Below are positions 23,142 through 36,703 of a stretch of DNA of 39,999 nt, one piece after another; position 1 is the first letter of the stretch, and every line of letters starts with the position of its first letter. The stretch lies in the IMG/VR virus record IMGVR_UViG_3300011338_000870, positions 1 to 39,999 of that record. One strand, 5' to 3'. The notes under the pieces are model-generated. The model searched no databases, was not told the origin of the DNA, and saw nothing but the letters and a program-made list of their open reading frames with translations. This DNA comes from a virus. Lineage: Duplodnaviria; Caudoviricetes. The translations under genes were made by a program, and so were the position numbers.

Positions 23142-24338
23142 CTAGGTTTGAGTGTTTGTCGCATAATGCGAAAATACTTTAAAATAATCTAATGTCTTTA
23201 AATTGAATGTAGAAGGTTTTGCTTTGGAGGAGAGTTCTTCCCAGAGGGCTATAAATCTAGGAATGATTACAGCCCAATCAAAATGCTTAATCTGGAGTAA
23301 GCATTGGATAGCCATGTTCTCTCTAATTTCTTTGTTTTCAATTAACCATAAAGTTTTATTTATAAACTCTTCTTTATCCACTTCTACACATGCTGAAAAT
23401 TGCATTTGATTTATTCCATCATATTGAAAAGGTAAAATCTCTCCCTTAGGCTTAAGAGTAGTAGGAATAAGAAAACCAGTGACACCCTCTTGAACAATAT
23501 CCCGATATCCACTCCAATCATAAGCAACGATGGGCAGCCCTGAAGCCATAGCTTCAAGTAAGGAAAGCCCAAATGTTTCTTGAGTGTTATTAGAAGGAGC
23601 TAGGAAGATATCTGCTTCGCTTAGAAGCTCTCTTTTTCTTTCTTCTGAAATATTAATTTCTATTTTAACATAAATATTTAATTCTTTAGCTTTTTCCTGA
23701 ACATGACCAGAGTATCGTACGTAACCAGTAGAATCCGCACCAGCTAGTGTAAGGTGTATTTTTTTTGTTGTTAGTTTAGAAATCTCTTTCACCATCTCTA
23801 AAAGAGGAAATAAATCTACCTTCGTATATTTACAAAATCTTCCTAAGTAGAGAAGTCGAATCACATCATCTTTTTTAGGCGCTTTAAAGTAAGAGCTAGA
23901 GTCTATGCCTAGGGGGATGATGGGAAGGATTATAGATTCGCTCATAGAATGGCTTGAAAGCATCTTTCTAACAGCTTTTTGAGCAGCATTACTTGTGCAA
24001 ATCAACGTATCTGATTCGGTAATCCCTGCAATCATATTCATGTACATCCACTCCATAAATGGAGCATGCCCAAGTGTGTGCGTAATACCAGTCACAGCCA
24101 TTGGCTTAGGGTTATAAGCCTTTAAAGAGAGTGCCCTATACATGTCTGGCCCTGGATAATGAAGAACATCTATAGGATTCTCTTTTAGAAAAGTAGGGAT
24201 ATCCACCAGACTAGGGTCTAGAATAGAGACCCTATGCTCTCCAGCATATTTCACTAAAGCATCTAAAAAGGTCTTATTGGCTATATGCCTACCCATCAGC
24301 TTTAGCGGTTCTTTGTATATTAATACTCCGATGTGCAT
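23142..24338 (-). CDS. Glycosyltransferase, GT4 family (GT-B fold)
   Basis: LYLGR, ETFGLSLLEAMASGLPIV (E-x7-E), G..DIV..GVTGFL motifs. Confidence 0.93.
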   Translation of the reverse strand: MHIGVLIYKEPLKLMGRHIANKTFLDALVKYAGEHRVSILDPSLVDIPTFLKENPIDVLHYPGPDMYRALSLKAYNPKPMAVTGITHTLGHAPFMEWMYMNMIAGITESDTLICTSNAAQKAVRKMLSSHSMSESIILPIIPLGIDSSSYFKAPKKDDVIRLLYLGRFCKYTKVDLFPLLEMVKEISKLTTKKIHLTLAGADSTGYVRYSGHVQEKAKELNIYVKIEINISEERKRELLSEADIFLAPSNNTQETFGLSLLEAMASGLPIVAYDWSGYRDIVQEGVTGFLIPTTLKPKGEILPFQYDGINQMQFSACVEVDKEEFINKTLWLIENKEIRENMAIQCLLQIKHFDWAVIIPRFIALWEELSSKAKPSTFNLKTLDYFKVFSHYATNTQT

Positions 24339-24431
24339 ATTCTCCCCTAGAGCGTAAATCAGGCAATCCCTGATAGCTTAAGTTTTAACAGTTTAATAAG
24401 AAGAGAGTCCTTATTTATCCCCTCCCCCTAA

Positions 24432-24462
24432 AGCCCTGGATTAGTCCGGGGCTCTTTTCTTC
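24432..24462. terminator. Intrinsic terminator-like hairpin
   Basis: AGCCCTGGA-TTAG-TCCGGGGCT followed by CTTTTCTT on the + strand and TT on the - strand. Confidence 0.65.
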
Positions 24463-24716
24463 TACCTACTAAATAATCTATTGAGAGGTCTTGCTGTGCA
24501 AACAGCAATCCCAACTCCCGGACTAACGACGCTACCCACTGGAGAAGCAAAATAAGCGCTTAAATGTTCATTAGCATTACAAAAAGATTCTGGAGGAGGA
24601 TAAGTAGCAGCCGGTGATTCATTACAAACTAAATGGCTTTCACCTGGCAGCAAAGCTATGCGCCCAGCAGTATCTGTAAAAAATTCGTGATACACTCTGT
24701 AATTAATACAAGTCAT
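24462..24716 (-). CDS. Hypothetical protein
   Basis: ORF with AAGGA RBS just downstream of the tRNA. Confidence 0.55.
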   Translation of the reverse strand: MTCINYRVYHEFFTDTAGRIALLPGESHLVCNESPAATYPPPESFCNANEHLSAYFASPVGSVVSPGVGIAVCTARPLNRLFSR

Positions 24717-24738
24717 TATTAGTCCTTTTTAATTGTTA

Positions 24739-24810
24739 CGGCCCCGCTTGGAATCGAACCAAGAATATCAGTTTTGGAGACTGACGTGATGCCATTTCCA
24801 CTACAGGGCC
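24739..24810 (-). tRNA. trnW: tRNA-Trp (CCA), 3' CCA not encoded
   Basis: GGCCCTG/CGGGGCC acceptor, TCAGT-CTCCAAA-ACTGA anticodon arm, CTTGG-TTCGATT-CCAAG T arm, discriminator G. Confidence 0.93.
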
Positions 24811-24818
24811 TATCCATT

Positions 24819-25004
24819 CTAGGATGTAATGTCCTCAGCCTCGGAAGGCGGAGGGCTAGAATCTTCTTTGTAACCACACCAAGCACATTGCCCAGAAGCT
24901 ACTGCTATTGAGTAGTTTTCTTTGTTGCATTTATAACAATGTACTAAATATAATTTCCCTTGCTCATCTCTAAAGTTAGGTTGCATATCTTGTATATTAT
25001 CCAT
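24819..25004 (-). CDS. Small zinc-ribbon protein
   Basis: CYKC...CAWCG. Confidence 0.7.
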   Translation of the reverse strand: MDNIQDMQPNFRDEQGKLYLVHCYKCNKENYSIAVASGQCAWCGYKEDSSPPPSEAEDITS

Positions 25005-25403
25005 TTAAACCTCTTTATTTTCTTCTAATACTTGTAAGATTTTCTTTAAAACTTCTTTAGCCTTCTCTTTGGTGCGGAAGACACGGTTTTGTTCTAGAAG
25101 CCTTTGATCAGGTTCAAAGTTCCACCAATTTGTTGAAGTAACCTGAAGCATAAAATCACTAGACATTATTGTGTAATATTCTTCCCCCTCTTCAGGCAAC
25201 CAACGATCGGGGAGAGGTTCAAAGCAATCAGGGTAGTCTATAATTTGAAAGCCCATATATGAAAAGCCTGAGTCAGTTATAATTTGATCTTTCTTAAATC
25301 CCGGACAATCAATCTTACATCTATACTTTTTCATTGGTTTGCTTTCTGGTTTTATAGAATTTATTTTATAAAGTTCAGTAATAAATTGAGAGCCAAATAT
25401 CAT
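25005..25403 (-). CDS. Hypothetical phage protein
   Basis: W.PEEGEEYY...N.FRTKE.A pattern common in phage hypotheticals. Confidence 0.7.
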   Translation of the reverse strand: MIFGSQFITELYKINSIKPESKPMKKYRCKIDCPGFKKDQIITDSGFSYMGFQIIDYPDCFEPLPDRWLPEEGEEYYTIMSSDFMLQVTSTNWWNFEPDQRLLEQNRVFRTKEKAKEVLKKILQVLEENKEV

Positions 25404-25549
25404 TTCCTCACCCCATTACACGCCATCAGATTGTTTTCGAGCATGGCGATTTTGTTTCCATACGTTAGCTTTCCTTGCCAAAATCCCAAAGCAAAGCCTA
25501 TAAATAAGCAAATCGACATAGCGCAAAATAATATTGTATCTGCCTTCAT
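25400..25549 (-). CDS. 49-aa membrane protein (not in the ORF track)
   Basis: MKADTILFCAMSICLFIGFALGFWQGK...; ATGA overlaps on both sides. Confidence 0.65.
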   Translation of the reverse strand: MKADTILFCAMSICLFIGFALGFWQGKLTYGNKIAMLENNLMACNGVRK

Positions 25550-25758
25550 TCCCCATCCCCTTCATTCAAGATTTTATCGATTCTCTTAAGATGAGCTGAA
25601 TAAGAAACCCATACTGTACTAGAGTTTTTAAGATTTATAAAAGCTTGTAGTTCTCTATTAATTTTAATAAGTTTATCTTTCTCTTCAGAACATTGAGAGT
25701 TAGAAAAGCAAAATTTTTTCTTCTCAATCTCATCCAAAAATTCATCGAGTGTTTTCAT
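25546..25758 (-). CDS. Hypothetical protein
   Basis: Coupled ORF (ATGA overlaps). Confidence 0.65.
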   Translation of the reverse strand: MKTLDEFLDEIEKKKFCFSNSQCSEEKDKLIKINRELQAFINLKNSSTVWVSYSAHLKRIDKILNEGDGE

Positions 25759-26123
25759 TTCTCCCCTATCCCCTCATCTGCTGCTTTAATTAAGGCGTCT
25801 GCGAGAGAAAGAGCAGTTTCCGAAACAATTAAAGCTGTGTCTACAGTGTGTTTTTTAGAGGCCATATCTATATTATACATCAACTGATGATTTGAAATTA
25901 TACCATTCATAGCTGCCTTAGCAAACTCATCCCTCCTCGCCTTCTGAATCATCTCATCGAGCCATGGAGTGCCGGATTCAGGGACTTTGAGGTGAATGGC
26001 TGCGTATTCTTGTAGTCGCATCCCTTCCCATTCTTGCATGGTTACAGAGCCATCTATTCTTTCATGTCTGAAAGTTACTGGGAAAGCAGGTTCTGCTTTT
26101 ATATCTTTTGATTCATTCGACAT
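25755..26123 (-). CDS. Hypothetical phage protein (PAFP...GM.L..Y.A family)
   Basis: Motifs PAFP, GMRLQEYAA, RDEFAKAAM, ADALI; start re-assigned to ATG 26123. Confidence 0.7.
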   Translation of the reverse strand: MSNESKDIKAEPAFPVTFRHERIDGSVTMQEWEGMRLQEYAAIHLKVPESGTPWLDEMIQKARRDEFAKAAMNGIISNHQLMYNIDMASKKHTVDTALIVSETALSLADALIKAADEGIGEK

Positions 26124-26125
26124 GG

Positions 26126-26278
26126 TTATTCCTTCCTCTCCCATACTTTGCCGCAGGAGCATTCTTTTTTATACGCACCTTTACCATCACCTTTATGATA
26201 TTCCGTTTTATACGGATGCCCAAAGTTCAGAATTGCGCAGAGGATTTGTTTAAGTAGGATTTGTTTAAGTTTTCTCAT
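26126..26278 (-). CDS. 50-aa Cys/His protein with 5-aa duplication (not in the ORF track)
   Basis: MRKLKQILLKQILCAILNFGH...ECSCGK; AAGGGTAGA RBS. Confidence 0.6.
   Translation of the reverse strand: MRKLKQILLKQILCAILNFGHPYKTEYHKGDGKGAYKKECSCGKVWERKE
26241..26270. repeat. Perfect 15-bp tandem duplication
   Basis: AGGATTTGTTTAAGT x2. Confidence 0.9.
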
Positions 26279-26454
26279 TCTCTACCCTTAGTTTTAGTAA
26301 TTTTTGTTGTATTACAATTTAATTATTTATAAACAAGACATTCCTCTTGAATAACCGACTTATCAAAAGCAATAATATCTGGAATTAATATTGAGGGTTG
26401 ATAATGAGGTCGACTCCAATTATTATCACCACATTTTGAACATTTTTCATCCAT
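26275..26454 (-). pseudogene. Zinc-ribbon gene interrupted by in-frame TAA
   Basis: MDEKCSKCG...ECLVYK*LNCNTTKITKTKGRE*; TAA at 26323-26325; the distal stop overlaps the next ATG. Confidence 0.55.
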
Positions 26455-26511
26455 CCCTATTCTCCTTTGCTTTATGGTTGTGTTCCCAACTTCTTATTCT
26501 TTGATCAGTTG

Positions 26512-26925
26512 TTAGCCTTCCATCGCCAGCTTGATCGCCCTGCGCACCTTCTCAAAATCGCCACGCGAAAACAGACAACCTCCGAACTCATCGTCCCGGC
26601 AATACATTTCGTTGTCCAACCAGCGCAACACCTCCAGCATTTCAGGGGCAGCGGCAATCAATTTTGCGTTGGCCTCGTGTTCTTCCTTCGTAATGCTTCG
26701 CGGGTCGCCTTTTCCACAATCGAAATAGTTAACCATCGCAACATGCTTGCAGCCGGATGAAATAGCGGTTTTCACGTTCACATCTTCAATCCGCCATGGT
26801 GCATTGCTGTGTACCGGGTAATCTTTACCACTGTAGGGTGTTTTCCCGTCCGTTATAATTGTTGGCGCTTCACTGTCTTTGCAAACTGTTCCACGGTAAG
26901 TGTTCCCGTCTCCATAACTATTCAT
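26512..26925 (-). CDS. Hypothetical phage protein (ANAKLIAAAPE family)
   Basis: APW...EANAKLIAAAPEML motif. Confidence 0.75.
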   Translation of the reverse strand: MNSYGDGNTYRGTVCKDSEAPTIITDGKTPYSGKDYPVHSNAPWRIEDVNVKTAISSGCKHVAMVNYFDCGKGDPRSITKEEHEANAKLIAAAPEMLEVLRWLDNEMYCRDDEFGGCLFSRGDFEKVRRAIKLAMEG

Positions 26926-27136
26926 TATGTACCTCCACTTCCTCTGCCATAATCTTCAGAAACTCTTCAAAGTTATATGCCACCTTATAATTTTCACCAT
27001 CCCTCGTGGTTATGTGCAGCGTATGATTTGATCCACACGCCACAGCCACAGAAACGATATGGTCTATACGCATACAAATTGAGTGCGTTTCGGTGTAGAT
27101 CATTACAAACCCTTTTGGGATCTTCGGCTCACTCAT
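26918..27136 (-). CDS. Hypothetical protein
   Basis: Coupled ORF with GGAGG RBS. Confidence 0.7.
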   Translation of the reverse strand: MSEPKIPKGFVMIYTETHSICMRIDHIVSVAVACGSNHTLHITTRDGENYKVAYNFEEFLKIMAEEVEVHNE

Positions 27137-27564
27137 AAACCCTCCTTATCAAGCCCATCCTGCACAAATTTAATAATCGCCTCTTCCGCCTTCTTGTCCC
27201 GGTCAATATAAAAACGGTACAGCAATTCTTCTGCTTTCAATGCCCGCTGGTACATATCCTCAGCGTGGGCTTTTGCGTGTGCTGCCGAACGATCCGCATC
27301 GATAAACTTTCCCAGCGGTTTCCATTCCATAGGCATTTTTGAAAACGGGTTCCATGCGTGCGGCTTCCATTGCAGTGTCCCGCCACATTGCGAGCACATC
27401 ACACAGGGGTCAATCACAACCTTTCCGTCCTCGTCTACGATTGCGATCTGGTAAACCCATCGGCCATTGTTGGCTTTCGTGCGTATTACAATTTCATCTC
27501 CTGTGTATTTCGCCAACGGGAAACGAGCATCGTCAATGCTTATCCATCCGTTTTTATCTGACAT
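27133..27564 (-). CDS. Hypothetical phage protein (DUF551-like WIS start)
   Basis: GWISIDDA.FP...HAW.P pattern; GGAGG RBS. Confidence 0.65.
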   Translation of the reverse strand: MSDKNGWISIDDARFPLAKYTGDEIVIRTKANNGRWVYQIAIVDEDGKVVIDPCVMCSQCGGTLQWKPHAWNPFSKMPMEWKPLGKFIDADRSAAHAKAHAEDMYQRALKAEELLYRFYIDRDKKAEEAIIKFVQDGLDKEGL

Positions 27565-27746
27565 AAATCCTCCAAAAATAGGCTAACAAGTCGTTTCACT
27601 CGGACTGGCCAAAAGCGGCCAGCCGGTGAACTCAGTCGATCTATCCACATTTCGTCTTTATCTGGATTCAAAGAAAGCCATACCTTCTTCTTTTCCTGAT
27701 AATTACGAAACCACCTATTTCTTTTTCTTTGTCGTCCTGTTTTCAT
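27540..27746 (-). CDS. Hypothetical basic protein
   Basis: Coupled ORF. Confidence 0.55.
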   Translation of the reverse strand: MKTGRQRKRNRWFRNYQEKKKVWLSLNPDKDEMWIDRLSSPAGRFWPVRVKRLVSLFLEDLCQIKTDG

Positions 27747-27943
27747 TTAGACCATTCGTTCCATAAGCTAATCATATACTCCGCGATTTCTTTGCGTTCT
27801 TCTGGGGTGACTTTATATTCATCAACTTCTCTTCCATCTTCTACGTAAATAGTTTCTTTGTTCCAACCAGGATGAATAAAACCAATACAAGAATCAAAAA
27901 CCCTTCCACTATCTAATACATATTTTATTTCATCATACTTCAT
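27743..27943 (-). CDS. Hypothetical protein
   Basis: Coupled ORF with GAGG RBS. Confidence 0.7.
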   Translation of the reverse strand: MKYDEIKYVLDSGRVFDSCIGFIHPGWNKETIYVEDGREVDEYKVTPEERKEIAEYMISLWNEWSK

Positions 27944-28313
27944 CTGAACCTCTTTTAGATTTTAAGATATTTTTGAGCATTTCATTTTCTCTTAAAATTA
28001 TACTGATTTTTTTCACGTCTGGTTCTTTTACTTCTACGGATTCAAGCGCATTGTCTATATTTGGATGAGCTCTTAAGCCTTCTGTGAAGACTGTGCTTTC
28101 ATAATAATTTATTTTAGAAAAAGCTGAATCAATAATATTGTTTTGAGAATTAATTTGAGACTCTAATTCACGAATAGTTTTCACCAAAGCAGCAACTCTT
28201 TCTGGGCATCTAGCAATAAAATCCCAATCTCTACTATTAAGAGGAGCTCCACTTACCCAATGAATCTGCTTTAACTCTTCTTCTATTTTGTCTATGTCTA
28301 GTGGTTCGGTCAT
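27933..28313 (-). CDS. Hypothetical phage protein (Ea22-like FIA..P..V.AL motif)
   Basis: DWDFIARCPERVAALV; GGAGG RBS. Confidence 0.65.
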   Translation of the reverse strand: MTEPLDIDKIEEELKQIHWVSGAPLNSRDWDFIARCPERVAALVKTIRELESQINSQNNIIDSAFSKINYYESTVFTEGLRAHPNIDNALESVEVKEPDVKKISIILRENEMLKNILKSKRGSDEV

Positions 28314-28570
28314 TCTGCCTCCGCTGCTTTGATTGCTTGTTCTAAAATAGAATAAGGTTCATCTCCTAATATTTCAGGAATAGAGTTATAGCTTAAAGCT
28401 TTTAAAGCTTCTTTACACGCTTCTAAGAGTGGATAAAAATGACTCGCTTGCTTGCAGAATATAGAAGCATCTCTAAAGTCTTCAATAAGTTCTTTATCTT
28501 TAAAGAACTGAAGAAATTCTCCACAGGGATGCGCTCTAAATTTATAAATATGTTTCTTTTCTTGCGTCAT
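28310..28570 (-). CDS. Hypothetical phage protein
   Basis: LLEACK...AIKAAE motif; AAGGAG RBS. Confidence 0.7.
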   Translation of the reverse strand: MTQEKKHIYKFRAHPCGEFLQFFKDKELIEDFRDASIFCKQASHFYPLLEACKEALKALSYNSIPEILGDEPYSILEQAIKAAEAE

Positions 28571-28582
28571 AAATTCTCCTTA

Positions 28583-28668
28583 TGCACGACCCACGAATCG
28601 AACGTGGACAATAACTAACAGAACGTCTTCTGATATAGCCATAGACTCTACCATTAAGCTAGTCGTGC
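28583..28668 (-). ncRNA. tRNA-like RNA with extended hairpin in place of the anticodon loop
   Basis: GCACGAC/GTCGTGC-A acceptor, GCTT-AATGGTA-GAGT D arm, CCACG-TTCGATT-CGTGG T arm; middle ATGGCTA/TAGTTAT plus CAGAA-GACG-TTCTG. Confidence 0.8.
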
Positions 28669-28683
28669 TAAATTCACATCCTT

Positions 28684-28817
28684 TGAGCGGGCCAGAATTG
28701 CACTGGCTAGCTAAGTCAGCCGTGCTGGCTACCACGACCGGATTCTAGCAAATTGATTATGGTTCAAGCTTAAACTCTGCCCACGTAACTACGTTTCGCT
28801 GTCAACGCCGCCGCTCG
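28684..28817 (-). ncRNA. ~134-nt tRNA-like RNA with a two-hairpin insert in place of the anticodon loop
   Basis: GAGCGG/CCGCTC acceptor, GCGT/ACGT D-like stem, AGTTA/TAGCT stem, GCCAG-TGCAATT-CTGGC T arm; flanks 28673-28829 also pair. Confidence 0.7.
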
Positions 28818-28841
28818 CAGGAATGTGAAAGATTAATCTTA

Positions 28842-29153
28842 TTATTCTTCGTCTTCTTCTTGATCTTCTGAAGGATCATAATCAGGATTTGTTTTATAAA
28901 CGTTCAATATCTCTTTATCAGAAACACCTGGAATTTTTGGCAAATAAGCAATATCATGTTCTCCTTCACAAAAAGAACTCGAATCATCTTCAAAAATTAT
29001 TCTAAATAATTGGAAACATGGGCTTTCTGAATCAAATTCAGTTGAAATATAGCCCTGCACTTCTTTTATTTTTTTACCAGCAAGTTTCTCAAGATTAATC
29101 CAATTTCCACCTGAAGAATCAAATTCAGCTTTTACATCATTGTGACTTTTCAT
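28842..29153 (-). CDS. Hypothetical protein with acidic tail
   Basis: ORF with GGAGAGGG RBS; EGEHD motif. Confidence 0.75.
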   Translation of the reverse strand: MKSHNDVKAEFDSSGGNWINLEKLAGKKIKEVQGYISTEFDSESPCFQLFRIIFEDDSSSFCEGEHDIAYLPKIPGVSDKEILNVYKTNPDYDPSEDQEEDEE

Positions 29154-29177
29154 ACCCTCTCCTCTTCCGTACTTCCT

Positions 29178-29345
29178 TTAAATTTTATCCATTCGATCAT
29201 GATTAACTTTCTTTTCTGCTTCTTCAAAAGCAGAGGTTAACAATTCATATTCTTCATCGGTTAAAGTTTTAAAAATTTGTTCCATTACTGTTTTTAAAGG
29301 AACTCCAACTTTTGAGTTTTTAAAATAAACTAAATTTTTATCCAT
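29178..29345 (-). CDS. 55-aa hypothetical protein (not in the ORF track)
   Basis: MDKNLVYFKNSKVGVPLK...; fills the gap and overlaps the upstream stop. Confidence 0.55.
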   Translation of the reverse strand: MDKNLVYFKNSKVGVPLKTVMEQIFKTLTDEEYELLTSAFEEAEKKVNHDRMDKI

Positions 29346-29769
29346 CTATTTTAATCCATAGATCAGCTTCGATATCTGATTGTTCATTACTAATCTTGGA
29401 GTCTATGCCAAATGAATTAAACTTTACATTCTTCAGCACCACTCGTAAGGGCTTGTCGGTTTGAAGCTTGCCTAAGCTACGTTCATTAATTAATTGTTTT
29501 AAGAAATCTGAAGAGAATAAGCCTTCAGGCGTTTTTTCTTTAAGTGAATTAATAACACAAGGACTCATCAATACTTCTTGCTTGGGTTGTGTGTCGTAGG
29601 GGAGCCAGTCATTTATTTCACTATCATGAGCATCACATTCTCCCAATTCTGTTTTTCCAACAGAAACCCCCATGCTAGTGATAGCTAATAAAGTAAAAAC
29701 ACGTCGACTTTTACTATCCCAAACTCCTCGCTTAAACTTCTGCCCAATATGTTCTTTATTTAGTTTCAT
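29338..29769 (-). CDS. Hypothetical protein
   Basis: Coupled ORF. Confidence 0.65.
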   Translation of the reverse strand: MKLNKEHIGQKFKRGVWDSKSRRVFTLLAITSMGVSVGKTELGECDAHDSEINDWLPYDTQPKQEVLMSPCVINSLKEKTPEGLFSSDFLKQLINERSLGKLQTDKPLRVVLKNVKFNSFGIDSKISNEQSDIEADLWIKIDG

Positions 29770-29963
29770 TTTATAATTTCCTGATATTTTTCAAAACTTA
29801 TTATCGCCTCAAAATACAGCTTAAGTTCTTTTATTTTAATAACACGTCTACGCCTATAGATATCCTCTAATTCCCATGTGTCCGCACCATAATCGGTACG
29901 TATAATGTAGAAGATTTTACCATTTCTATTGTCTCGTAATCTTGGAGCACGCTCCAATTTCAT
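29766..29963 (-). CDS. Hypothetical protein
   Basis: GAGGTG RBS, coupled. Confidence 0.65.
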   Translation of the reverse strand: MKLERAPRLRDNRNGKIFYIIRTDYGADTWELEDIYRRRRVIKIKELKLYFEAIISFEKYQEIIK

Positions 29964-30094
29964 CTTCTCACCTCAGTTAAAAGCTTATGAACAATATCGT
30001 AAGATTTCCTTGCAGAAGCTAGTGCCTTATGAGCAGGGAACAAAGGAAACATCTTACGGATAGAGAGATAGAGGCGTTTAAGATCTTGATTCAT
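29960..30094 (-). CDS. 44-aa hypothetical protein (not in the ORF track)
   Basis: MNQDLKRLYLSIRKMFP...; ATGA overlaps at both ends. Confidence 0.6.
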   Translation of the reverse strand: MNQDLKRLYLSIRKMFPLFPAHKALASARKSYDIVHKLLTEVRR

Positions 30095-30348
30095 ATCTTA
30101 TGCTCCACAAAGATATTAGGTTCATCAGGATTCGAAGTGTCCTCTTCTTCACACTCCCAAATTTCAAAACAATCAGGATGAAAAGCAACATCTCGGCTGT
30201 TATCAGCAGGATCTTCTGCAAGAGTAAACCTGTCATAAAGATCCAAGTCTAATTTGCAGTAGAAGCAAACTTGTTCTAAGTTTTGATATTGTGTGGCTGT
30301 TAAGCCTTCTGGATATTCTTCGCGTGGTGTGTCTCTATAGCAGTTCAT
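30091..30348 (-). CDS. Small zinc-finger protein
   Basis: CFYC...FHPDC; AGAAAGGGTTAGA RBS. Confidence 0.7.
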   Translation of the reverse strand: MNCYRDTPREEYPEGLTATQYQNLEQVCFYCKLDLDLYDRFTLAEDPADNSRDVAFHPDCFEIWECEEEDTSNPDEPNIFVEHKI

Positions 30349-30384
30349 TTTCTAACCCTTTCTTAAAATGAATTGTTTATTTAT

Positions 30385-30543
30385 TTAATATATTTCACTA
30401 GCTTTTATTGCTTTTTTACGTCCGCCTAATTTTCCATTAGCTTGAGAAGCTTTAGTTTTGGCTTTAGATTTAACTTGGCCACCTTTTTTACCGGCTTCAC
30501 TTAAGAAGTTCTTAATTTGTTTGGAGATTGTTTCTTTCTTCAT
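30385..30543 (-). CDS. 52-aa basic KGG-type putative DNA-binding protein (not in the ORF track)
   Basis: MKKETISKQIKNFLSEAGKKGGQVKSKAKTKASQANGKLGGRKK...; directly downstream of a promoter. Confidence 0.75.
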   Translation of the reverse strand: MKKETISKQIKNFLSEAGKKGGQVKSKAKTKASQANGKLGGRKKAIKASEIY

Positions 30544-30552
30544 TTTATAATC

Positions 30553-30581
30553 TTTCTAGCTAAGCAGCTTTGGTTTGTCAA
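30553..30581 (-). promoter_or_regulatory. Sigma70-type promoter with 19-bp operator
   Basis: TTGACA-17 bp-TAGAAA; contains AACCAAAGCTGCTTAGCTA (30557-30575). Confidence 0.65.
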
Positions 30582-30944
30582 CTAATTAAAATAATTATTT
30601 ATACAATTCTCAAATTCTTCGAAAGAATAACAGATTTTAGTTTTGTATCCTCTTGCTTCCATCAATATCATAAACTCTTGTTGTTCTTTAGTGGGTTTAT
30701 TGTAGCCGGTTTTCATTTCTATCCATAGGCCATGAAACTCTTTAATAGGCTCAGGGATAAACAAATCGTACACACCTGCGCGAACCCCTTCTCTCTTCAG
30801 TTTAATGGCAACAAGAAGGTTTCTGAGCCCTCCATTGCCTATTGCAAAGATGACTCTCTTGGGAAATTGCATTTTAAACCAATTAACACACTGGCATTGG
30901 AGTTGATGCTCTGAAATTTTAGGCTTTGATGTTTTTGTTTTCAT
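30582..30944 (-). CDS. VRR-NUC domain nuclease (Holliday-junction-resolvase-like)
   Basis: SEHQLQ...NGG.R...GV.AGV.DL...IEMK....PT.EQ. Confidence 0.88.
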   Translation of the reverse strand: MKTKTSKPKISEHQLQCQCVNWFKMQFPKRVIFAIGNGGLRNLLVAIKLKREGVRAGVYDLFIPEPIKEFHGLWIEMKTGYNKPTKEQQEFMILMEARGYKTKICYSFEEFENCINNYFN

Positions 30945-31266
30945 TTTCTTTCCATTTTATCCATGCGAGGCAGATTGCTTCAGGTGCTGTCGTTCCAATA
31001 GAACCTTCATCATATTGATCTGAAATGGCATCTTGAATTAAATCTCCAGTATTCTTGAACACATGATAATAAACTTTAAACTTAACATCTTTTCGATCTA
31101 TATGCTTGAGATATGCTCCAGGCATCTCTTCAAACAATTCCCAAGCATCTAAAATTTTTAAACTCCAATAAGGAACTAGCTTATCAGCAGCTAAACCATA
31201 TTGTGTTTTATGATAATCAATTCCTTTTAATTTTGCTATTTGTTCATCAAGTTTAGTATGAATCAT
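30919..31266 (-). CDS. Phage ABA-sandwich-like protein
   Basis: P.WS..I.DAW.L...TAPEAICLA pattern. Confidence 0.7.
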   Translation of the reverse strand: MIHTKLDEQIAKLKGIDYHKTQYGLAADKLVPYWSLKILDAWELFEEMPGAYLKHIDRKDVKFKVYYHVFKNTGDLIQDAISDQYDEGSIGTTAPEAICLAWIKWKENENKNIKA

Positions 31267-31655
31267 CTCTTCTCCCCAAACACAGGCTTCTTTAACTCAC
31301 TAAAGAGCTGACTATCAATAATGGCTGTCCCTTCAATAATCTTTACACACCGAAGCACATTAAAAAGATGCCCCACTTCATAATCAAGCAAACTAGCTTC
31401 AGGCCTCCAGCCAGCTTTCACTAACTTCTCTTTTACCCCTTCAAAGTAATCATGGAGCCAAGATGGATTTTTATTGTTAGTCTCACAAAGACGAAACATC
31501 TCTTCGTTCCCGCAATAGCGTATAGGGCCTTCAGGGGTATCGTGACGTAAAAGGATAGGCTCCTCTATAGATCTGCGCACAGTGAGGCGTTTAAGCTGAT
31601 CCATTGGCATTTCTAGGATAGTGTCGCCTTTGAGTTTATATAGTTTCCAGGTCAT
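31263..31655 (-). CDS. Hypothetical protein
   Basis: Coupled ORF. Confidence 0.65.
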   Translation of the reverse strand: MTWKLYKLKGDTILEMPMDQLKRLTVRRSIEEPILLRHDTPEGPIRYCGNEEMFRLCETNNKNPSWLHDYFEGVKEKLVKAGWRPEASLLDYEVGHLFNVLRCVKIIEGTAIIDSQLFSELKKPVFGEKR

Positions 31656-31882
31656 AAATCTTCAATCCCCACTATCTTTTCACTAGTCACGCTAGATTTA
31701 GGCTCAGGGGCTCCCATAAGAGCTTCCCTATAAGTATTTTGTAAAACATGGTCATTTGGGTATAATGCCAACATCTCTTCATGCCATTTAATTTTAAAAG
31801 CCCTTTGGTCACATTCAGGTGTTGAAAGGAGCTTTTGTACAAATTGACAGTAGTCTTTGCCTGAAGGGTGAGATTGACTCAC
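31652..31882 (-). CDS. Hypothetical protein
   Basis: GAGGAG RBS, GTG start, coupled. Confidence 0.65.
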   Translation of the reverse strand: MSQSHPSGKDYCQFVQKLLSTPECDQRAFKIKWHEEMLALYPNDHVLQNTYREALMGAPEPKSSVTSEKIVGIEDL

Positions 31883-32064
31883 GATACATTCTCCTCTTTA
31901 ATCCATCCTTTAGCTAAAAGCTCATTTAAACAAGTGACGCTCTTATCAATACAGCTCTTGCAATAGCCTTCTAAGAGGTCTAAATCTTTAATCCTGGCTA
32001 GGCACATCTTGCAGTTATAATAATTATACTTAAGCTTTTCTTCATTTGGCTCTAGTTCATTCAT
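31879..32064 (-). CDS. Small zinc-finger protein
   Basis: CKMC...GYCKSC; TAGAAAGGGT RBS. Confidence 0.7.
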   Translation of the reverse strand: MNELEPNEEKLKYNYYNCKMCLARIKDLDLLEGYCKSCIDKSVTCLNELLAKGWIKEENVS

Positions 32065-32089
32065 AATTTACCCTTTCTAAATTGTTTTA

Positions 32090-32680
32090 AATTTTGAGCG
32101 CAAAAAACCTTCGCATCTGAGTAGAGTAGTTAACCCAGAAATAATTAACTCGGAATATGTTGCAGCTCTGGTCCTTAAGCTAAGCGTACAATTGTATATT
32201 ATCTGGCATGTGTTCACTTATTATCGCGGGCACCACCCCGCTGTAGTCCTGCATCTCTAATTGGCCCTCATTGAAGGGGCGCACCAGCTTGTCCCGTATC
32301 TCCCCCTGCTGCAGAGGATTAAGGCGCCTGGAAGCTACAGTTTGGAATAACTACCCGTAAGACTACCGAGCACTGTATGAAGACGGCGCACAATTGTAGT
32401 TAACCTAAGCTATCTCCCTCTAAATATCTCTCCATCTTTTAAATGAGGGATTAGGAGTGAGCGCGTTTAAAGTGGGGCGCACAAGATCACTTAAAGGATT
32501 AGCTGGAATGGAATCGTGTGATCCCAAGCAAAGGTATGGGTTTAAACATTACTGTTTAAATATTCCATCCCAGCAAATACTTTAGTTGTTCATTTCTATA
32601 TTGGATTCCCCTTGCTATTGACTTCACACGATTGAAGTATTGAAGTTTTGTTGATGGTAAAATCTTAATTAAGATTTAAA
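32090..32680. ncRNA. Large structured non-coding region (candidate ncRNA and/or replication origin)
   Basis: No ORF of 60 aa or more in any frame; visibly GC-richer than flanks; many nested inverted repeats and short direct repeats. Confidence 0.55.
32660..32677. promoter_or_regulatory. Perfect 18-bp palindrome
   Basis: AAATCTTAATTAAGATTT. Confidence 0.6.
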
Positions 32681-32683
32681 TAA

Positions 32684-33112
32684 TTACAAGCCTTTTTCTA
32701 TCTCAGACTTACGAAAACTTATAACTGTGCGTAATATATCAACTTTTAATATTGCCATTTCGTATTCTACTTTGGCTTGTTGGAAGTTTCTGTTTGCTTC
32801 TGTAAGTCCTTCTTGAAATTGTTGCCATTCTTCAGAAGAATATGCTGCATCTTCTTTTTCATTATTAGGAATTTTAGGGCTATAAACTGTTGCTCCGGCA
32901 GGAACTATTGTGCCAACAGGTAAAGGTTTAGCTCTTATGTTTACTTTTAAAGTAGCAAGAATAGGTTTAGCTTTATTTTCAATCTGCTCATAGTTTACTT
33001 TAGCCTCGGCAAACTTCTTATAACAAACATGAGCCCAAGCCCCTCTTGAAATTAATTCATTTAATAACTGCTCGTGAGGCATTAAATAATAATTAGGGGT
33101 TTCAGTTTCCAT
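32684..33112 (-). CDS. Coiled-coil protein, possibly a recombination mediator
   Basis: Two long helices ending LRTVISF.K.E, reminiscent of UvsY-like proteins; near SSB and exonuclease. Confidence 0.5.
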   Translation of the reverse strand: METETPNYYLMPHEQLLNELISRGAWAHVCYKKFAEAKVNYEQIENKAKPILATLKVNIRAKPLPVGTIVPAGATVYSPKIPNNEKEDAAYSSEEWQQFQEGLTEANRNFQQAKVEYEMAILKVDILRTVISFRKSEIEKGL

Positions 33113-33503
33113 AAGCCCTCAACACACAAGAAACATTCTGAGTATATCCATTTGAGCGTTGAGTGTAAGTAAATATGCCAGAATTAATCGAACCCCGCAT
33201 ATTAGTTACTTCACCCGCTACAGTTCCAACATAATCAATACTATCACAGCCCGTTTGAGACCAAGTAAAAGCAACTCCATCCGAAACTCCTGTCCCATCT
33301 CTAAACCATCCTCCAACACCTACTTGATTGCCAGCTCTACAATCCCAGTAAGTCGAAGCGTCTTGAGCATTGTTGCCATTTAAAAAATCAGCCATATGGA
33401 AATTGCAGTTTTGTTCGGAAGCATCTAAACCGATTAAGTCTTCGCCACTTGCTCCGCCACAACTTGAAAATAAAAGTAAAAGTAAAATTAATGTCAATCG
33501 CAT
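33102..33503 (-). CDS. Lipoprotein
   Basis: Start re-assigned to ATG 33503 (AGAAAGGGTT RBS); MRLTLILLLLLFSS-C lipobox; beta-rich, 4 further Cys. Confidence 0.8.
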   Translation of the reverse strand: MRLTLILLLLLFSSCGGASGEDLIGLDASEQNCNFHMADFLNGNNAQDASTYWDCRAGNQVGVGGWFRDGTGVSDGVAFTWSQTGCDSIDYVGTVAGEVTNMRGSINSGIFTYTQRSNGYTQNVSCVLRAYGN

Positions 33504-33571
33504 AAAACCCTTTCTGAAAAATAGTTGGGCGAAATTATTGCGCACAAATCACCCAACTTAATTAATTGAAT

Positions 33572-34078
33572 TTAAAACGGTATTTCACTATCAAATTTAG
33601 GCTCTTGAGTAGGAAGAGGGGGCTCTTCTTCTTTTTTAGCAGAATTAGCAGCTTTAGCAGGGCCTAATTGTTTAAGCTCTATACTTTGAAGCGCTTTCCA
33701 TTCATTGTTTGTTAATTCTTTTTTAACAAAGACAGAATAGGTTGTATTTTTTTCAACGCCTGTACGTTTAATTTTAAATATGTTTTGTTCGCCATATTCA
33801 AGGATTGCATCTTTGATTGCGGTAATAAACCCATAACCGCCAGAAACAATCTTTGCTGAAGATGCTCCGACAGGAATAAAATTAAGCTTAAACTTAAAAG
33901 AAGAGCCTTCAACTTTAGTGGGATATTCTTTGTATGGTTTTTCTTTAAAGATGGTGAAGAAGCAATAAGGATCACCCATAAAGACACCTTCTATAAATTG
34001 CCCGTCTTTAAGTTGTACGTAATCCTCTTTTGAAAAACTATTACCGTCATTTTTACCGAATGTGTCTACCCATGACAT
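33572..34078 (-). CDS. Single-stranded DNA-binding protein-like
   Basis: KIKRTG....TTYSV motif and acidic C-terminal DSEIPF tail. Confidence 0.7.
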   Translation of the reverse strand: MSWVDTFGKNDGNSFSKEDYVQLKDGQFIEGVFMGDPYCFFTIFKEKPYKEYPTKVEGSSFKFKLNFIPVGASSAKIVSGGYGFITAIKDAILEYGEQNIFKIKRTGVEKNTTYSVFVKKELTNNEWKALQSIELKQLGPAKAANSAKKEEEPPLPTQEPKFDSEIPF

Positions 34079-34146: not shown

Positions 34147-35010
34147 TTATTTTACTGTGACTAACTTACGAGTTTTTAACTTTTCAACAGGTTTATCCAC
34201 AGCTGTGAATTGTTTATGATACCACTGGGGGGCGTCAAAATATTCCCAGCATTTAATTGCGGCTTTTGCTCCTTCTAACGCTCTTTCTAATTTTAATGCG
34301 CCGTAATTATAGAGTTTAATCTGTGAAGGATTTTCTCGCTCGATATTAATAATTAAACCGGAAGAGCAATCGATTCCCCGAGACTCAAGCAGCCCTTGGC
34401 GGTATATAGCGAGTTGAGCAGTCATCTTAGGCTCATAGATGGAGCCCGTTTTAAAGTCGCTCATAACGAAACCTGGCACTAATGGGTCGCTATTCTTAGA
34501 GAGGTAAGGCGTTAAATGTTTGATGGAAGATTCGTTTAACCTGAAACAAACATCAAAACGCCCGCACACTCTCAAAACATGACTTGTCACTTGCTCTTCT
34601 AAGCCAATCACTTCGAGCCCTGAATCTTTATAAAACTCACGAAAAGTATTTAAGGCAATTTCAACATCAGGATTTTCAGAAGTAAAACCTTTACCATTTA
34701 AAAAGCCTTCAAAGCCCGAATGACAATCAGTCCCAAAGTCTTGAACGCGTTTACCTTCTAAAGAAGGCCCAGCTAAACCTACTTCACAAGCCCAATTTAA
34801 GCACGTAGCAGATTCAAGGCGCTCTTTTAACGAGTCATGAGTAGCAAGCCCGCGCAAAGCAAAGATTATTGCTTGAGAAGCTTGCTTGATTTTCCATTGC
34901 TCGAGTCCATATGAAGAACCTGCGCTACTTAAAACAGTAGTAGCTCCGGGATAGTAAGCGTTTCTTTCTTCACAGAAATAATAACCATTTTTACGTTTAA
35001 TCTCAGCCAT
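34147..35010 (-). CDS. PD-(D/E)XK exonuclease (Cas4/RecB-like)
   Basis: YP..TTVL, GT..H, E...GRFD, DFKTG, QLA.Y motifs; start may be ATG 35010 or 35088. Confidence 0.85.
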   Translation of the reverse strand: MAEIKRKNGYYFCEERNAYYPGATTVLSSAGSSYGLEQWKIKQASQAIIFALRGLATHDSLKERLESATCLNWACEVGLAGPSLEGKRVQDFGTDCHSGFEGFLNGKGFTSENPDVEIALNTFREFYKDSGLEVIGLEEQVTSHVLRVCGRFDVCFRLNESSIKHLTPYLSKNSDPLVPGFVMSDFKTGSIYEPKMTAQLAIYRQGLLESRGIDCSSGLIINIERENPSQIKLYNYGALKLERALEGAKAAIKCWEYFDAPQWYHKQFTAVDKPVEKLKTRKLVTVK

Positions 35011-35150
35011 TGGAAACCACCATTTCTTCTTCATGACATTCTTGAAGATCAGCAATAAGCCTATCAAGTTTATTATTAAGAGCATCACATGACTTTTTGT
35101 AATTCAAATAGTGAAAGTCTAACTCTTCCTGCATCGTTCGACATTCAACT

Positions 35151-35370: not shown

Positions 35371-35559
35371 TTACTTATTAAAGAAAACCTTGTATCGTTT
35401 TTCTGCTTCTTCGTTTTCTAATTCTTCCAGCTTTTCTGTTGTTAATCGTATTTCTTTACCCAGCGTATAAGCCTTGTCTTCTAGTTTTTGAACTTGCTTA
35501 CGTAGTTCTTCAAGGCCAGTAATGTAGTTTTGTATTTTTAGGTATATTTCATCGGTCAT
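35371..35559 (-). CDS. Small coiled-coil protein
   Basis: Coupled ORF. Confidence 0.7.
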   Translation of the reverse strand: MTDEIYLKIQNYITGLEELRKQVQKLEDKAYTLGKEIRLTTEKLEELENEEAEKRYKVFFNK

Positions 35560-35816
35560 AAAGCACCCGTTGCTTTCATTAAGGCTATTTTATTTAATTC
35601 TTTTTGTTCTCTTTCATTTTGCTCCTTTTTACTTCCGCCACATTCATGGCAAAATGCACAGTCTTCAATTGCATAGTTCGAACAATCACAACGGCAATCA
35701 CAAAATACTGGTTGAATATTCATATTGATTTCCTTTTTGTTAAAAACTTCAAATTTGACGGCGTTTGTTTTAGAAAAATAATCTATCAATTCTTCTTTGG
35801 TGATGCCTTTTTTCAC
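35556..35816 (-). CDS. Cys-rich small protein
   Basis: CDCRCDC...CAFCHEC; GGGAG RBS, GTG start. Confidence 0.65.
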   Translation of the reverse strand: MKKGITKEELIDYFSKTNAVKFEVFNKKEINMNIQPVFCDCRCDCSNYAIEDCAFCHECGGSKKEQNEREQKELNKIALMKATGAL

Positions 35817-36368: not shown

Positions 36369-36392
36369 TTTCTAACCCCTTCTTTTTATTGT

Positions 36393-36530
36393 TTATTTAC
36401 TTCGTGGATACCAAACATTGAAATAAATTGTGCCGTTGATGTTGTAGGTGCAGTCGTCTAAAAGAGCGCCGTTTGTTTTTTGTACAAACTTTAAAGCGTT
36501 TTCTAATTTGATAAATTTCTTTGTTTTCAT
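36393..36530 (-). CDS. 45-aa first early protein (not in the ORF track)
   Basis: MKTKKFIKLENALKFVQK...; GAAAGGGTTA RBS just downstream of a promoter. Confidence 0.7.
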   Translation of the reverse strand: MKTKKFIKLENALKFVQKTNGALLDDCTYNINGTIYFNVWYPRSK

Positions 36531-36575
36531 TTTTTAACCCTTTCATTCATCCCCGCAACATTGCGTTGATAATCA

Positions 36576-36605
36576 GTTGTAAACCAAAACAGCTTAGGTT
36601 GTCAA
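36576..36605 (-). promoter_or_regulatory. Major leftward early promoter with 19-bp operator
   Basis: TTGACA-18 bp-TACAAC; pseudo-palindrome AACCTAAGCTGTTTTGGTT (36582-36600). Confidence 0.7.
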
Positions 36606-36703
36606 TGATAAAAACAGCATGATCTGTAAAATAATTTATGCCCACTCATTAAGTTATTGATTTAATAGATAAATGTCTTTATTATTTAATTACACAAAAA
36701 ATT

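What the first reader, a model, noticed from the sequence alone, without database searches (positions are those of the whole stretch)
32090..32680. ~600-nt structured non-coding locus where replication genes should be, in a genome with no replication proteins
Seen: the only long ORF-free stretch inside the densely packed early arm, between the exonuclease/SSB block and the VRR-NUC block. It holds a 13-bp stem (32502-32514/32562-32574) enclosing a GTAA-tetraloop hairpin and a second hairpin (3-way junction on the minus strand). Other stems are TCCCTC/GAGGGA, CTGTAG/CTACAG, GCGGG/CCCGC and GCCC(C)T/AGGGC. Direct repeats are GGCGCAC x3 (32278, 32385, 32476), GTAGTTAACC x2 (32126, 32396) and ACAATTGTA x2 (32188, 32390). 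A T run ends the minus strand. I see no polymerase, primase, helicase or initiator gene in the complete genome. Established: lambdoid O/P genes occupy this syntenic slot, and ColE1 replicates using only a ~550-nt structured primer RNA plus host enzymes. Inference: an RNA-primed, initiator-free phage origin, or a new large ncRNA.
Basis: partly seen in the sequence, partly recalled or inferred. Interest (0 to 1): 0.82.

Follow-up and report, generated by a model that had tools for sequence, protein, structure and literature searches.

The report
Structured noncoding gap replacing phage initiator
A 39.8-kb river phage with no recognisable replication-initiator gene has a 619-base gene-free stretch, predicted to fold as RNA, where some relatives keep their initiator gene; it likely acts as a transcription-primed replication origin run by host enzymes, as in dairy phage c2, but no relative of the stretch was found and its function is untested.

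Summary
The gap is real: 32065-32683 (619 nt), the longest ORF-free stretch of a circularly closed phage genome, with no coding signal in any frame. No initiator, helicase, primase or polymerase was detected, whole or decayed, although many small early ORFs have no family. Four of eight distinct phages with the same SSB family carry a lambda-O-like initiator, two of them downstream of the SSB. Folding support is real but uneven. The three-way junction 32485-32591 is strong (z -5.2; rank 2 of 3970 genome windows). Whole-gap energy is unremarkable (z -0.8), and ensemble measures put the gap in the top ~5% of genome windows. The direct repeats do not exceed other genome windows. No homolog of the gap was found, so there is no covariation test. 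Best reading (0.45): an initiator-free, transcript-primed origin. That concept is already known from Lactococcus Ceduovirus c2 and ColE1, but this sequence, fold and position differ. Main rival (0.3): a regulatory or standalone structured RNA, with replication starting elsewhere.

The parts
32065..32683 (-). 619-nt ORF-free gap in the early operon; candidate transcript-primed origin
32660..32677 (.). 18-bp perfect palindrome just after the upstream stop codon; longest in the genome (next is 14 bp); A/U hairpin or dimer-binding site
   Evidence: (P 0.004 vs shuffles; 0 of 122 genome windows)
32624..32633 (-). 10-nt segment fully complementary to 32512-32521 (the unpaired junction strand of domain I); possible pseudoknot or switch
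   Evidence: I11; a 10-bp inverted repeat arises in 20% of shuffles, so weak
32485..32591 (-). Domain I: three-way junction; 13-bp stem (one G-U) extended by an imperfect outer stem, GUAA-tetraloop hairpin, 4-bp hairpin
32415..32450 (-). 6-bp stem with 24-nt loop (pair probability 0.80); not significant alone
32174..32411 (-). Domain II: predicted ~240-nt rod closed by two 10-bp helices (the palindromic ACAATTGT copies pair with each other), with inner helices at p 0.9-0.99; forms on the minus strand only
32247..32306 (-). G5-A-G tract starting the second most RNA:DNA-hybrid-favouring 60-nt window of the early arm; candidate R-loop nucleation point, sequestered in domain II
   Evidence: post hoc; about 8% by chance by my estimate; QmRLFS-type G-cluster pattern not met
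32126..32137 (-). Second GGTTAACTAC copy; complementary to 32343-32354, so an alternative partner
   Evidence: I9, I5
32096..32168 (-). Small 3' domain with the U6 run (32102-32107), followed by the ribosome-binding leader of the next gene
34147..35088 (-). Context: exonuclease (phrog_298)
   Evidence: E 1.5e-23
33572..34078 (-). Context: 168-aa SSB-like protein, predicted gp32-like OB fold
   Evidence: 1gpc prob 0.99, E 0.026; Z 6.5 to RB69 gp32, rmsd 3.5, 119 aligned
32684..33112 (-). Context: 142-aa gene directly upstream; family shared with SSB-bearing relatives that also have initiators, so not the initiator
   Evidence: (E 8e-9)
31263..32064 (-). Context: three orphan ORFs directly downstream (61 aa with two CxxC, 76 aa, 130 aa); an unrecognised small initiator cannot be excluded
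30582..30944 (-). Context: VRR-NUC nuclease (putative Holliday-junction resolvase)

Best explanation
The 619-nt gap is likely an initiator-free replication origin: host RNA polymerase would transcribe it as part of the early operon, the RNA is predicted to fold into a three-way junction and a long rod, and part of it would re-invade the template as an R-loop that primes or opens the DNA for host replication enzymes. SHOWN: the gap is non-coding; no initiator, loader, helicase, primase or polymerase is detectable; relatives with the same SSB have initiators. PREDICTED: the minus-strand fold. INFERRED: transcription through the gap (flanking genes are co-oriented); R-loop formation near the G5AG tract at 32306; priming by host Pol I/RNase H or PriA-type restart; later amplification by recombination using the phage exonuclease, SSB and VRR-NUC nuclease.
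For: (1) The genome closes and must replicate, yet no initiation gene was found: PHROGs 67+37 ORFs, Pfam 50+17, NCBIfam 50, four replication PHROGs in six frames through stops at E<=10 (phrog_270 matched 2 of 2 relatives), and HMMs built from relatives' own initiators and loaders (its control HMM found the 142-aa gene). (2) Of 8 distinct phages with this SSB family (loci L001-L010; L002, L008 and L009 are one phage), 4 show an O-like initiator, 2 of them downstream of the SSB (L001, L010); none has a >=300-nt gap downstream of the SSB. The closest clade relative (portal 42%) keeps initiator and loader. (3) A river-sample relative, ~85% identical in two flanking genes, has 6423 unmatched letters where this phage has 4686, consistent with an exchanged replication module. 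(4) The fold is strand-specific: 91 pairs at p>0.9 on the minus strand vs 42+-22 in shuffles (0 of 25 reach it), 13 on the plus strand; the rod has 36 long-range pairs vs 4+-6 (0 of 250 shuffles). (5) The one strain difference listed in the gap (32384) turns a predicted G-U into A-U. (6) The gap holds the second most hybrid-favouring window of the early arm. (7) Precedent: Ceduovirus origins (PMC7150918).
Against: No test of origin activity was possible. No homolog of the gap was found, so there is no covariation. Whole-gap and rod MFE are ordinary (z -0.8, -0.4). Against real 619-nt genome windows the gap is only in the top ~5% (3 of 62 have as many confident pairs, 2 of 62 as many long-range pairs), and the rod window was chosen after seeing the fold. 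No sigma-70-type promoter or terminator lies in the gap, whereas c2 and ColE1 origins have their own promoter. GC skew turns at 36647 and 21939 with gene direction, not at the gap. There is no outstanding AT-rich unwinding element (5% of genome windows are as weak). The initiator slot is not fixed: L003 and L009 keep it elsewhere. The other 4 SSB-family phages are held only as 1-14 kb pieces that show no initiator. Three orphan ORFs next to the gap could hide a small initiator.
Confidence: 0.45

Rival explanations
1. The gap encodes a structured RNA that is not an origin: either a cis element of the early transcript (processing site, attenuator or antiterminator between the recombination genes and the downstream genes) or a processed standalone ncRNA. 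Replication would then start elsewhere, for example at the divergent region 36369-36703 (where c2 keeps its origin), or by recombination alone.
For: Strand-specific fold with G-U pairs. Long irregular stems resemble RNase III substrates (recalled). Duplicated GGTTAACTAC gives alternative pairings. GC-rich core in a ~38% GC genome. The phage carries other ncRNA (two tRNA calls and a tRNA-like element). GC-skew minimum at 36647.
Against: It does not explain the missing initiator. No Rfam match even at E<=10 beyond two implausible eukaryotic families. MFE density is far from that expected of an ornate RNA. No terminator hairpin.
Confidence: 0.3
2. The gap is a double-stranded DNA origin read by a protein: a small unrecognised phage initiator (61-, 76- or 130-aa ORF downstream), a host protein, or a helper phage's initiator. 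The palindromes and repeats would be binding sites and the RNA fold a by-product.
For: 18-bp palindrome, the longest in the genome. Two near-identical 13-mers 202 bp apart and two 12-mers 198 bp apart. The three downstream ORFs are orphans.
Against: The repeats are not iteron-like (dispersed, 7-13 bp) and not above other genome windows. No DnaA box in the gap. A minus-only fold that relies on G-U pairs is not expected of a dsDNA site. The 130-aa model resembles no known initiator, though the model is weak (pLDDT 59).
Confidence: 0.15
3. The gap is functionless: the decayed remains of a gene or an insertion, with one chance hairpin.
For: No homolog anywhere; MFE z -0.8; a coding window at 27601 folds as well as domain I; one minus frame runs 153 codons interrupted only by TAG.
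Against: No coding signal or initiator remnant (the TAG-only frame scores -0.28, and TAG ends 5 of 67 genes). The genome is otherwise tightly packed. Near-identical strains in river runs keep the gap with one listed change, while nearby small genes vary between contigs.
Confidence: 0.1

Closest known systems
Lactococcus Ceduovirus (c2, bIL67, 923-type) non-coding origins with the PE1 transcript
   Same: Lytic tailed phage; ORF-free origin region; the c2 origins support plasmid replication without phage proteins and depend on a non-coding transcript (PMC7150918, passages). c2 ori types share no sequence with each other, so lack of similarity is expected.
   Different: c2 origins lie between the divergent early and late blocks and are flanked by promoters PE1 and PE2. 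This gap lies inside the early operon with no promoter detected and has no blastn match to any INPHARED Ceduovirus at E<=1. Function here is untested.
ColE1-type RNA II origin
   Same: Similar length, folded RNA, a G-tract upstream of the 3' end, no initiator protein (ColE1 details recalled; R-loop initiation stated in PMC12599619, passages).
   Different: No sequence match in PLSDB, no Rfam RNAI match, no dedicated or antisense promoter found; it sits in a phage operon.
Phage T4 R-loop origins (oriA, E, F, G)
   Same: Transcription-made R-loops beside recombination genes, followed by recombination-dependent replication (R-loops: PMC12599619; the rest recalled).
   Different: T4 encodes its own replisome; this phage encodes only an exonuclease, an SSB and a nuclease.
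Lambda O/P and SPP1 G38P/G39P-type initiator modules
   Same: Present in relatives that share the SSB (L001, L003, L009, L010).
   Different: Absent here, with no remnant.
Large ornate ncRNAs (ROOL, GOLLD, OLE) and group I/II introns
   Same: Size range; phage location.
   Different: No Rfam match; it does not interrupt a gene; whole-length folding energy is ordinary.

Membership tests
Ceduovirus-type non-coding origin | ORF-free region in a phage without a recognisable initiator | tested here: met
Ceduovirus-type non-coding origin | Located between the divergent early and late blocks | tested here: not met
   The gap lies between co-oriented early genes; the divergent region is 36369-36703
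Ceduovirus-type non-coding origin | Flanked by its own early promoters (PE1, PE2) | tested here: inconclusive
   No sigma-70-type site in the gap; host and its promoter consensus unknown
Ceduovirus-type non-coding origin | Sequence similarity to a c2, bIL67 or 923 ori type | tested here: not met
   blastn against 50,697 phage records gave only short chance-level hits to Flavobacterium and Pseudomonas phages
Ceduovirus-type non-coding origin | Supports plasmid replication without phage proteins; needs the transcript | not testable with these tools
   needs a host and cloning
ColE1-type RNA II origin | Similarity to ColE1-family replicons or RNA I | tested here: not met
ColE1-type RNA II origin | G-rich tract able to nucleate a persistent hybrid | tested here: inconclusive
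   G5AG at 32306 starts the second-ranked hybrid-favouring window; G-cluster pattern not met
ColE1-type RNA II origin | RNase H cleavage and Pol I priming | not testable with these tools
   experiment needed
Lambda O/P-type origin | Initiator gene containing or adjoining an iteron array | tested here: not met
ROOL / GOLLD / OLE / group I or II intron / RNase P / tmRNA | Match to the Rfam covariance model or ARAGORN | tested here: not met
New conserved structured ncRNA class | Covariation across homologs | tested here: inconclusive
   No homolog found; one strain change, compatible with the fold

The most novel reading that the evidence does not exclude
Within a podovirus-like lineage whose members use lambda-O-type initiator proteins, this phage has replaced the initiator-loader cassette with a ~600-nt RNA origin of a new fold (three-way junction plus 240-nt switchable rod) that works from inside the polycistronic early transcript using host enzymes alone: an independent protein-to-RNA substitution of a phage replication initiator.
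Probability: 0.25. Interest if true: 0.75.

Novelty: new variant of a known kind. Interest (0 to 1): 0.5.

Why it matters
Many small tailed phages have no recognisable replication genes, and how they start replication is mostly unknown; the sk1/c2 literature says as much for lactococcal lytic phages (PMC8965321, passages). If this gap is an origin, it gives a second, unrelated example of a protein-free phage origin, a case of an initiator gene exchanged for an RNA element within one lineage, a compact replicon for an as yet unidentified host, and a rule for annotating similar gaps. If it is a regulatory RNA instead, it is a new but orphan structured RNA of moderate interest.

Tried and rejected
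HOMOLOG SEARCHES THAT FOUND NOTHING FOR THE GAP: blastn against INPHARED and PLSDB; two exact patterns in IMG/VR; blastn and nhmmer against 43 fetched loci; two whole relative records (best 25 nt); scan look-alikes. IMG/VR scans with the 142-aa protein, TerL and the first SSB alignment gave no locus. GTDB scans with SSB and portal alignments gave no prophage, so the host stays unknown. The 33 VRR-NUC loci are otherwise unrelated phages. RNA RUN: the one RNA run holds contigs on the SSB and exonuclease genes but none on the gap; contigs cannot show absence or level, so I draw nothing from it. REJECTED READINGS: hidden ORF or TAG read-through; decayed initiator; group I or II intron, RNase P, tmRNA, hammerhead (motif look-alikes inspected by eye against recalled consensus; Rfam and ARAGORN negative); ancient ~200-nt tandem duplication (P 0.09); shared operator AACCTAAGCT (6 matches vs 4.35 expected); DnaA boxes (none in the gap); ssDNA origin (DNA fold z about -1); GC skew as origin marker (follows gene direction). 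A Walker-A-like 8-mer in the 279-aa late ORF lies in a low-complexity protein with no family. 'UvsY-like' for the 142-aa gene is my recalled impression; no database supports it. The 130-aa ORF has no fold match (weak model, so not an exclusion). My 100-nt sliding scan could not see the long rod. An earlier count said the 32384 change breaks a pair; that came from a local fold and is corrected. Schiemann et al. 2004 (c2 transcript) was not held; I know it only through PMC7150918.

Full report
SETTING. The window is one whole viral record. Its last 193 bases repeat its first 193 with 2 mismatches. The genes on either side of the join are adjacent and colinear in relative L044, so I treat it as a closed 39.8-kb genome, although IMG/VR lists it as linear with CheckV 55%. 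The plus arm encodes terminase, portal, capsid and tail proteins; the minus arm (21.9-36.4 kb) holds small early genes, a glycosyltransferase, two tRNA calls, an exonuclease and a VRR-NUC nuclease. Near-identical DNA is in four river metagenome runs of one study. The host is unknown; no GTDB prophage relative was found.

THE GAP IS REAL AND NON-CODING. It spans 32065-32683, 619 nt; the next longest gap is 335 nt. No stop-free frame exceeds 59 codons. A codon model trained on 39 of the phage's genes scores all six frames at -0.35 to -0.53, against a median of +0.19 for genes and -0.54 for wrong frames. One minus frame is interrupted only by TAG for 153 codons, but it scores -0.28, and TAG ends 5 of 67 genes. 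Rfam finds nothing at gathering thresholds and only two implausible eukaryotic families at E<=10.

NO INITIATOR IS DETECTABLE. 67 main ORFs and 37 minor frames were scanned against PHROGs, 67 against Pfam and 50 against NCBIfam; none matched an initiator, loader, helicase, primase or polymerase. Four replication PHROGs searched in six frames through stops gave no candidate at E<=10, while phrog_270 matched 2 of 2 relative records. HMMs built from three relatives' initiators and three loaders found no remnant; the control HMM found the 142-aa gene at E 8e-9. The 168-aa gene is SSB-like: a confident model (pLDDT 86) ranks gp32 and RPA OB folds highest, at middling scores. The limit: most early ORFs have no family, and the 61-, 76- and 130-aa ORFs just downstream of the gap are orphans.

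RELATIVES. The SSB family has 820 representatives at E<=0.001. Ten loci were fetched, representing 8 distinct phages. Four show a lambda-O-like initiator: L001 and L010 downstream of the SSB, L003 and L009 elsewhere. The other four are 1-14 kb pieces that show none. L009/L044 is the same clade as this phage (portal 42%, TerS 49%; capsid segment 62%) and keeps initiator and loader before TerS. None has a gap of 300 nt or more downstream of the SSB. In river run X5, a relative about 85% identical at 35391-35562 and 30586-30704 has 6423 unmatched letters between them, where this phage has 4686; its content could not be read. So the initiator is the norm in this group, its position varies, and this phage lacks it at both positions.

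STRUCTURE. A G-U pair in the 13-bp stem works only on the minus, transcribed strand. The whole-gap ensemble adds a rod from 32411 to 32174 with helices at p 0.9-0.99, closed by the two palindromic ACAATTGT copies pairing with each other. On the minus strand 91 pairs exceed p 0.9 against 42+-22 in shuffles (0 of 25); on the plus strand 13 do. The rod has 36 pairs spanning 100 nt or more against 4+-6 (0 of 250 shuffles; 0 of 388 genome windows), but that window was chosen after seeing the fold. The fair comparison, whole gap against 62 other 619-nt transcribed windows, gives 3, 2 and 4 windows as good on three measures. Energy alone is ordinary: z -0.8 for the gap, -0.4 for the rod. An 18-bp palindrome opens the gap and is the longest in the genome. 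The direct repeats beat shuffles but not other genome windows. The single strain difference listed in the gap changes a predicted G-U to A-U: compatible, but one site. No homolog was found, so covariation could not be tested.

MECHANISM. I commit to a transcript-primed origin at 0.45. The reasoning is by elimination and position: a closed genome without an initiator, one large non-coding block in the replication-recombination region, a fold confined to the transcribed strand, and a G5AG-led window that ranks second in the early arm for RNA:DNA hybrid stability (post hoc, weak). Inferred steps are read-through transcription from the early promoter region, folding that frees the G-tract, R-loop formation, priming or fork loading by host enzymes, and later recombination-driven amplification. 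Against it: no promoter or terminator in the gap, no skew or unwinding signal, no conservation. Rivals are a regulatory or standalone RNA with the origin elsewhere (0.3), a protein-bound DNA origin (0.15) and a functionless remnant (0.1).

COMPARISON. It would work like the Ceduovirus origins, which are ORF-free, need a non-coding transcript and replicate plasmids without phage proteins (PMC7150918; part of the abstract and passages of Introduction, Methods, Results 3.5 and Discussion seen). It is not a member: position and sequence differ. T4 and ColE1 R-loop initiation is stated in PMC12599619 (passages); further ColE1 and T4 detail is recalled. PMC8965321 (passages) notes how little is known of lytic lactococcal phage replication proteins. 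Other papers were seen only as search listings; none of those six searches listed a description of this phage or element. No supplements were read. Earlier scan notes propose similar readings for gaps in unrelated phages; they are unchecked and give no support.

VERDICT. Observation partly confirmed, interpretation partly supported. A real, orphan, probably RNA-structured element in an initiator-less phage; the concept has a precedent and the function is untested. Novelty: new variant of a known kind. Interest 0.5; 0.75 if the initiator-to-RNA substitution is shown.

Noticed in passing
window 28670-28830 (-): A ~150-nt tRNA-like element directly upstream of the ARAGORN tRNA-Ile call: acceptor-like stem, T-arm-like hairpin, a large multi-hairpin insert and a 10-bp flanking stem; z -3.0. 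Missed by ARAGORN and by Rfam at E<=1. Could be a tRNA mimic (Y-RNA-like or tmRNA-like; recalled comparison).
   Followed up: partly
window 28583-28668 (-): ARAGORN calls tRNA-Ile(TAT), 86 nt, but Rfam does not match it and a relaxed run reads it as tRNA-Leu with an expanded anticodon loop: an atypical or degenerate tRNA.
   Followed up: partly
window 36605 and 30581 (-): Two similar promoter-like elements begin with TTGACA and share a spacer motif; many early genes share a long leader ending in AAAGGGTT. Likely duplicated early-expression cassettes.
   Followed up: partly
window 36393-36530 (-): Unlisted 45-aa ORF with the typical leader; it shortens the truly non-coding divergent region to about 170 nt.
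   Followed up: partly
window 24000-30700: Contigs in river run X5 match this arm in pieces, with many small early genes replaced, and one joins the two tRNA regions: a hypervariable accessory region among co-occurring relatives.
   Followed up: no
window 23142-24338 (-): GT4-family glycosyltransferase, with a weaker match to 'GT4 in conflict systems'; possible DNA or surface modification.
   Followed up: no
window 33102-33545 (-): Lipoprotein-like ORF (signal peptide with a Cys) with no family, inserted between the SSB and the 142-aa gene; possible superinfection-exclusion moron (inference).
   Followed up: no
window 27601-27716 (-): The most stably folding 116-nt window of the genome (z -5.8) lies inside a 68-aa ORF.
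   Followed up: no
L003:290-2508: An IS3-like transposase pair and a 630-nt gap lie upstream of a short 119-aa initiator C-terminal ORF; possibly an interrupted initiator gene.
   Followed up: no
P0001 family (window 33572-34078): An unannotated viral protein family with 820 representatives and a predicted gp32-like OB fold, not in Pfam, PHROGs or NCBIfam: an undescribed phage SSB family.
   Followed up: partly
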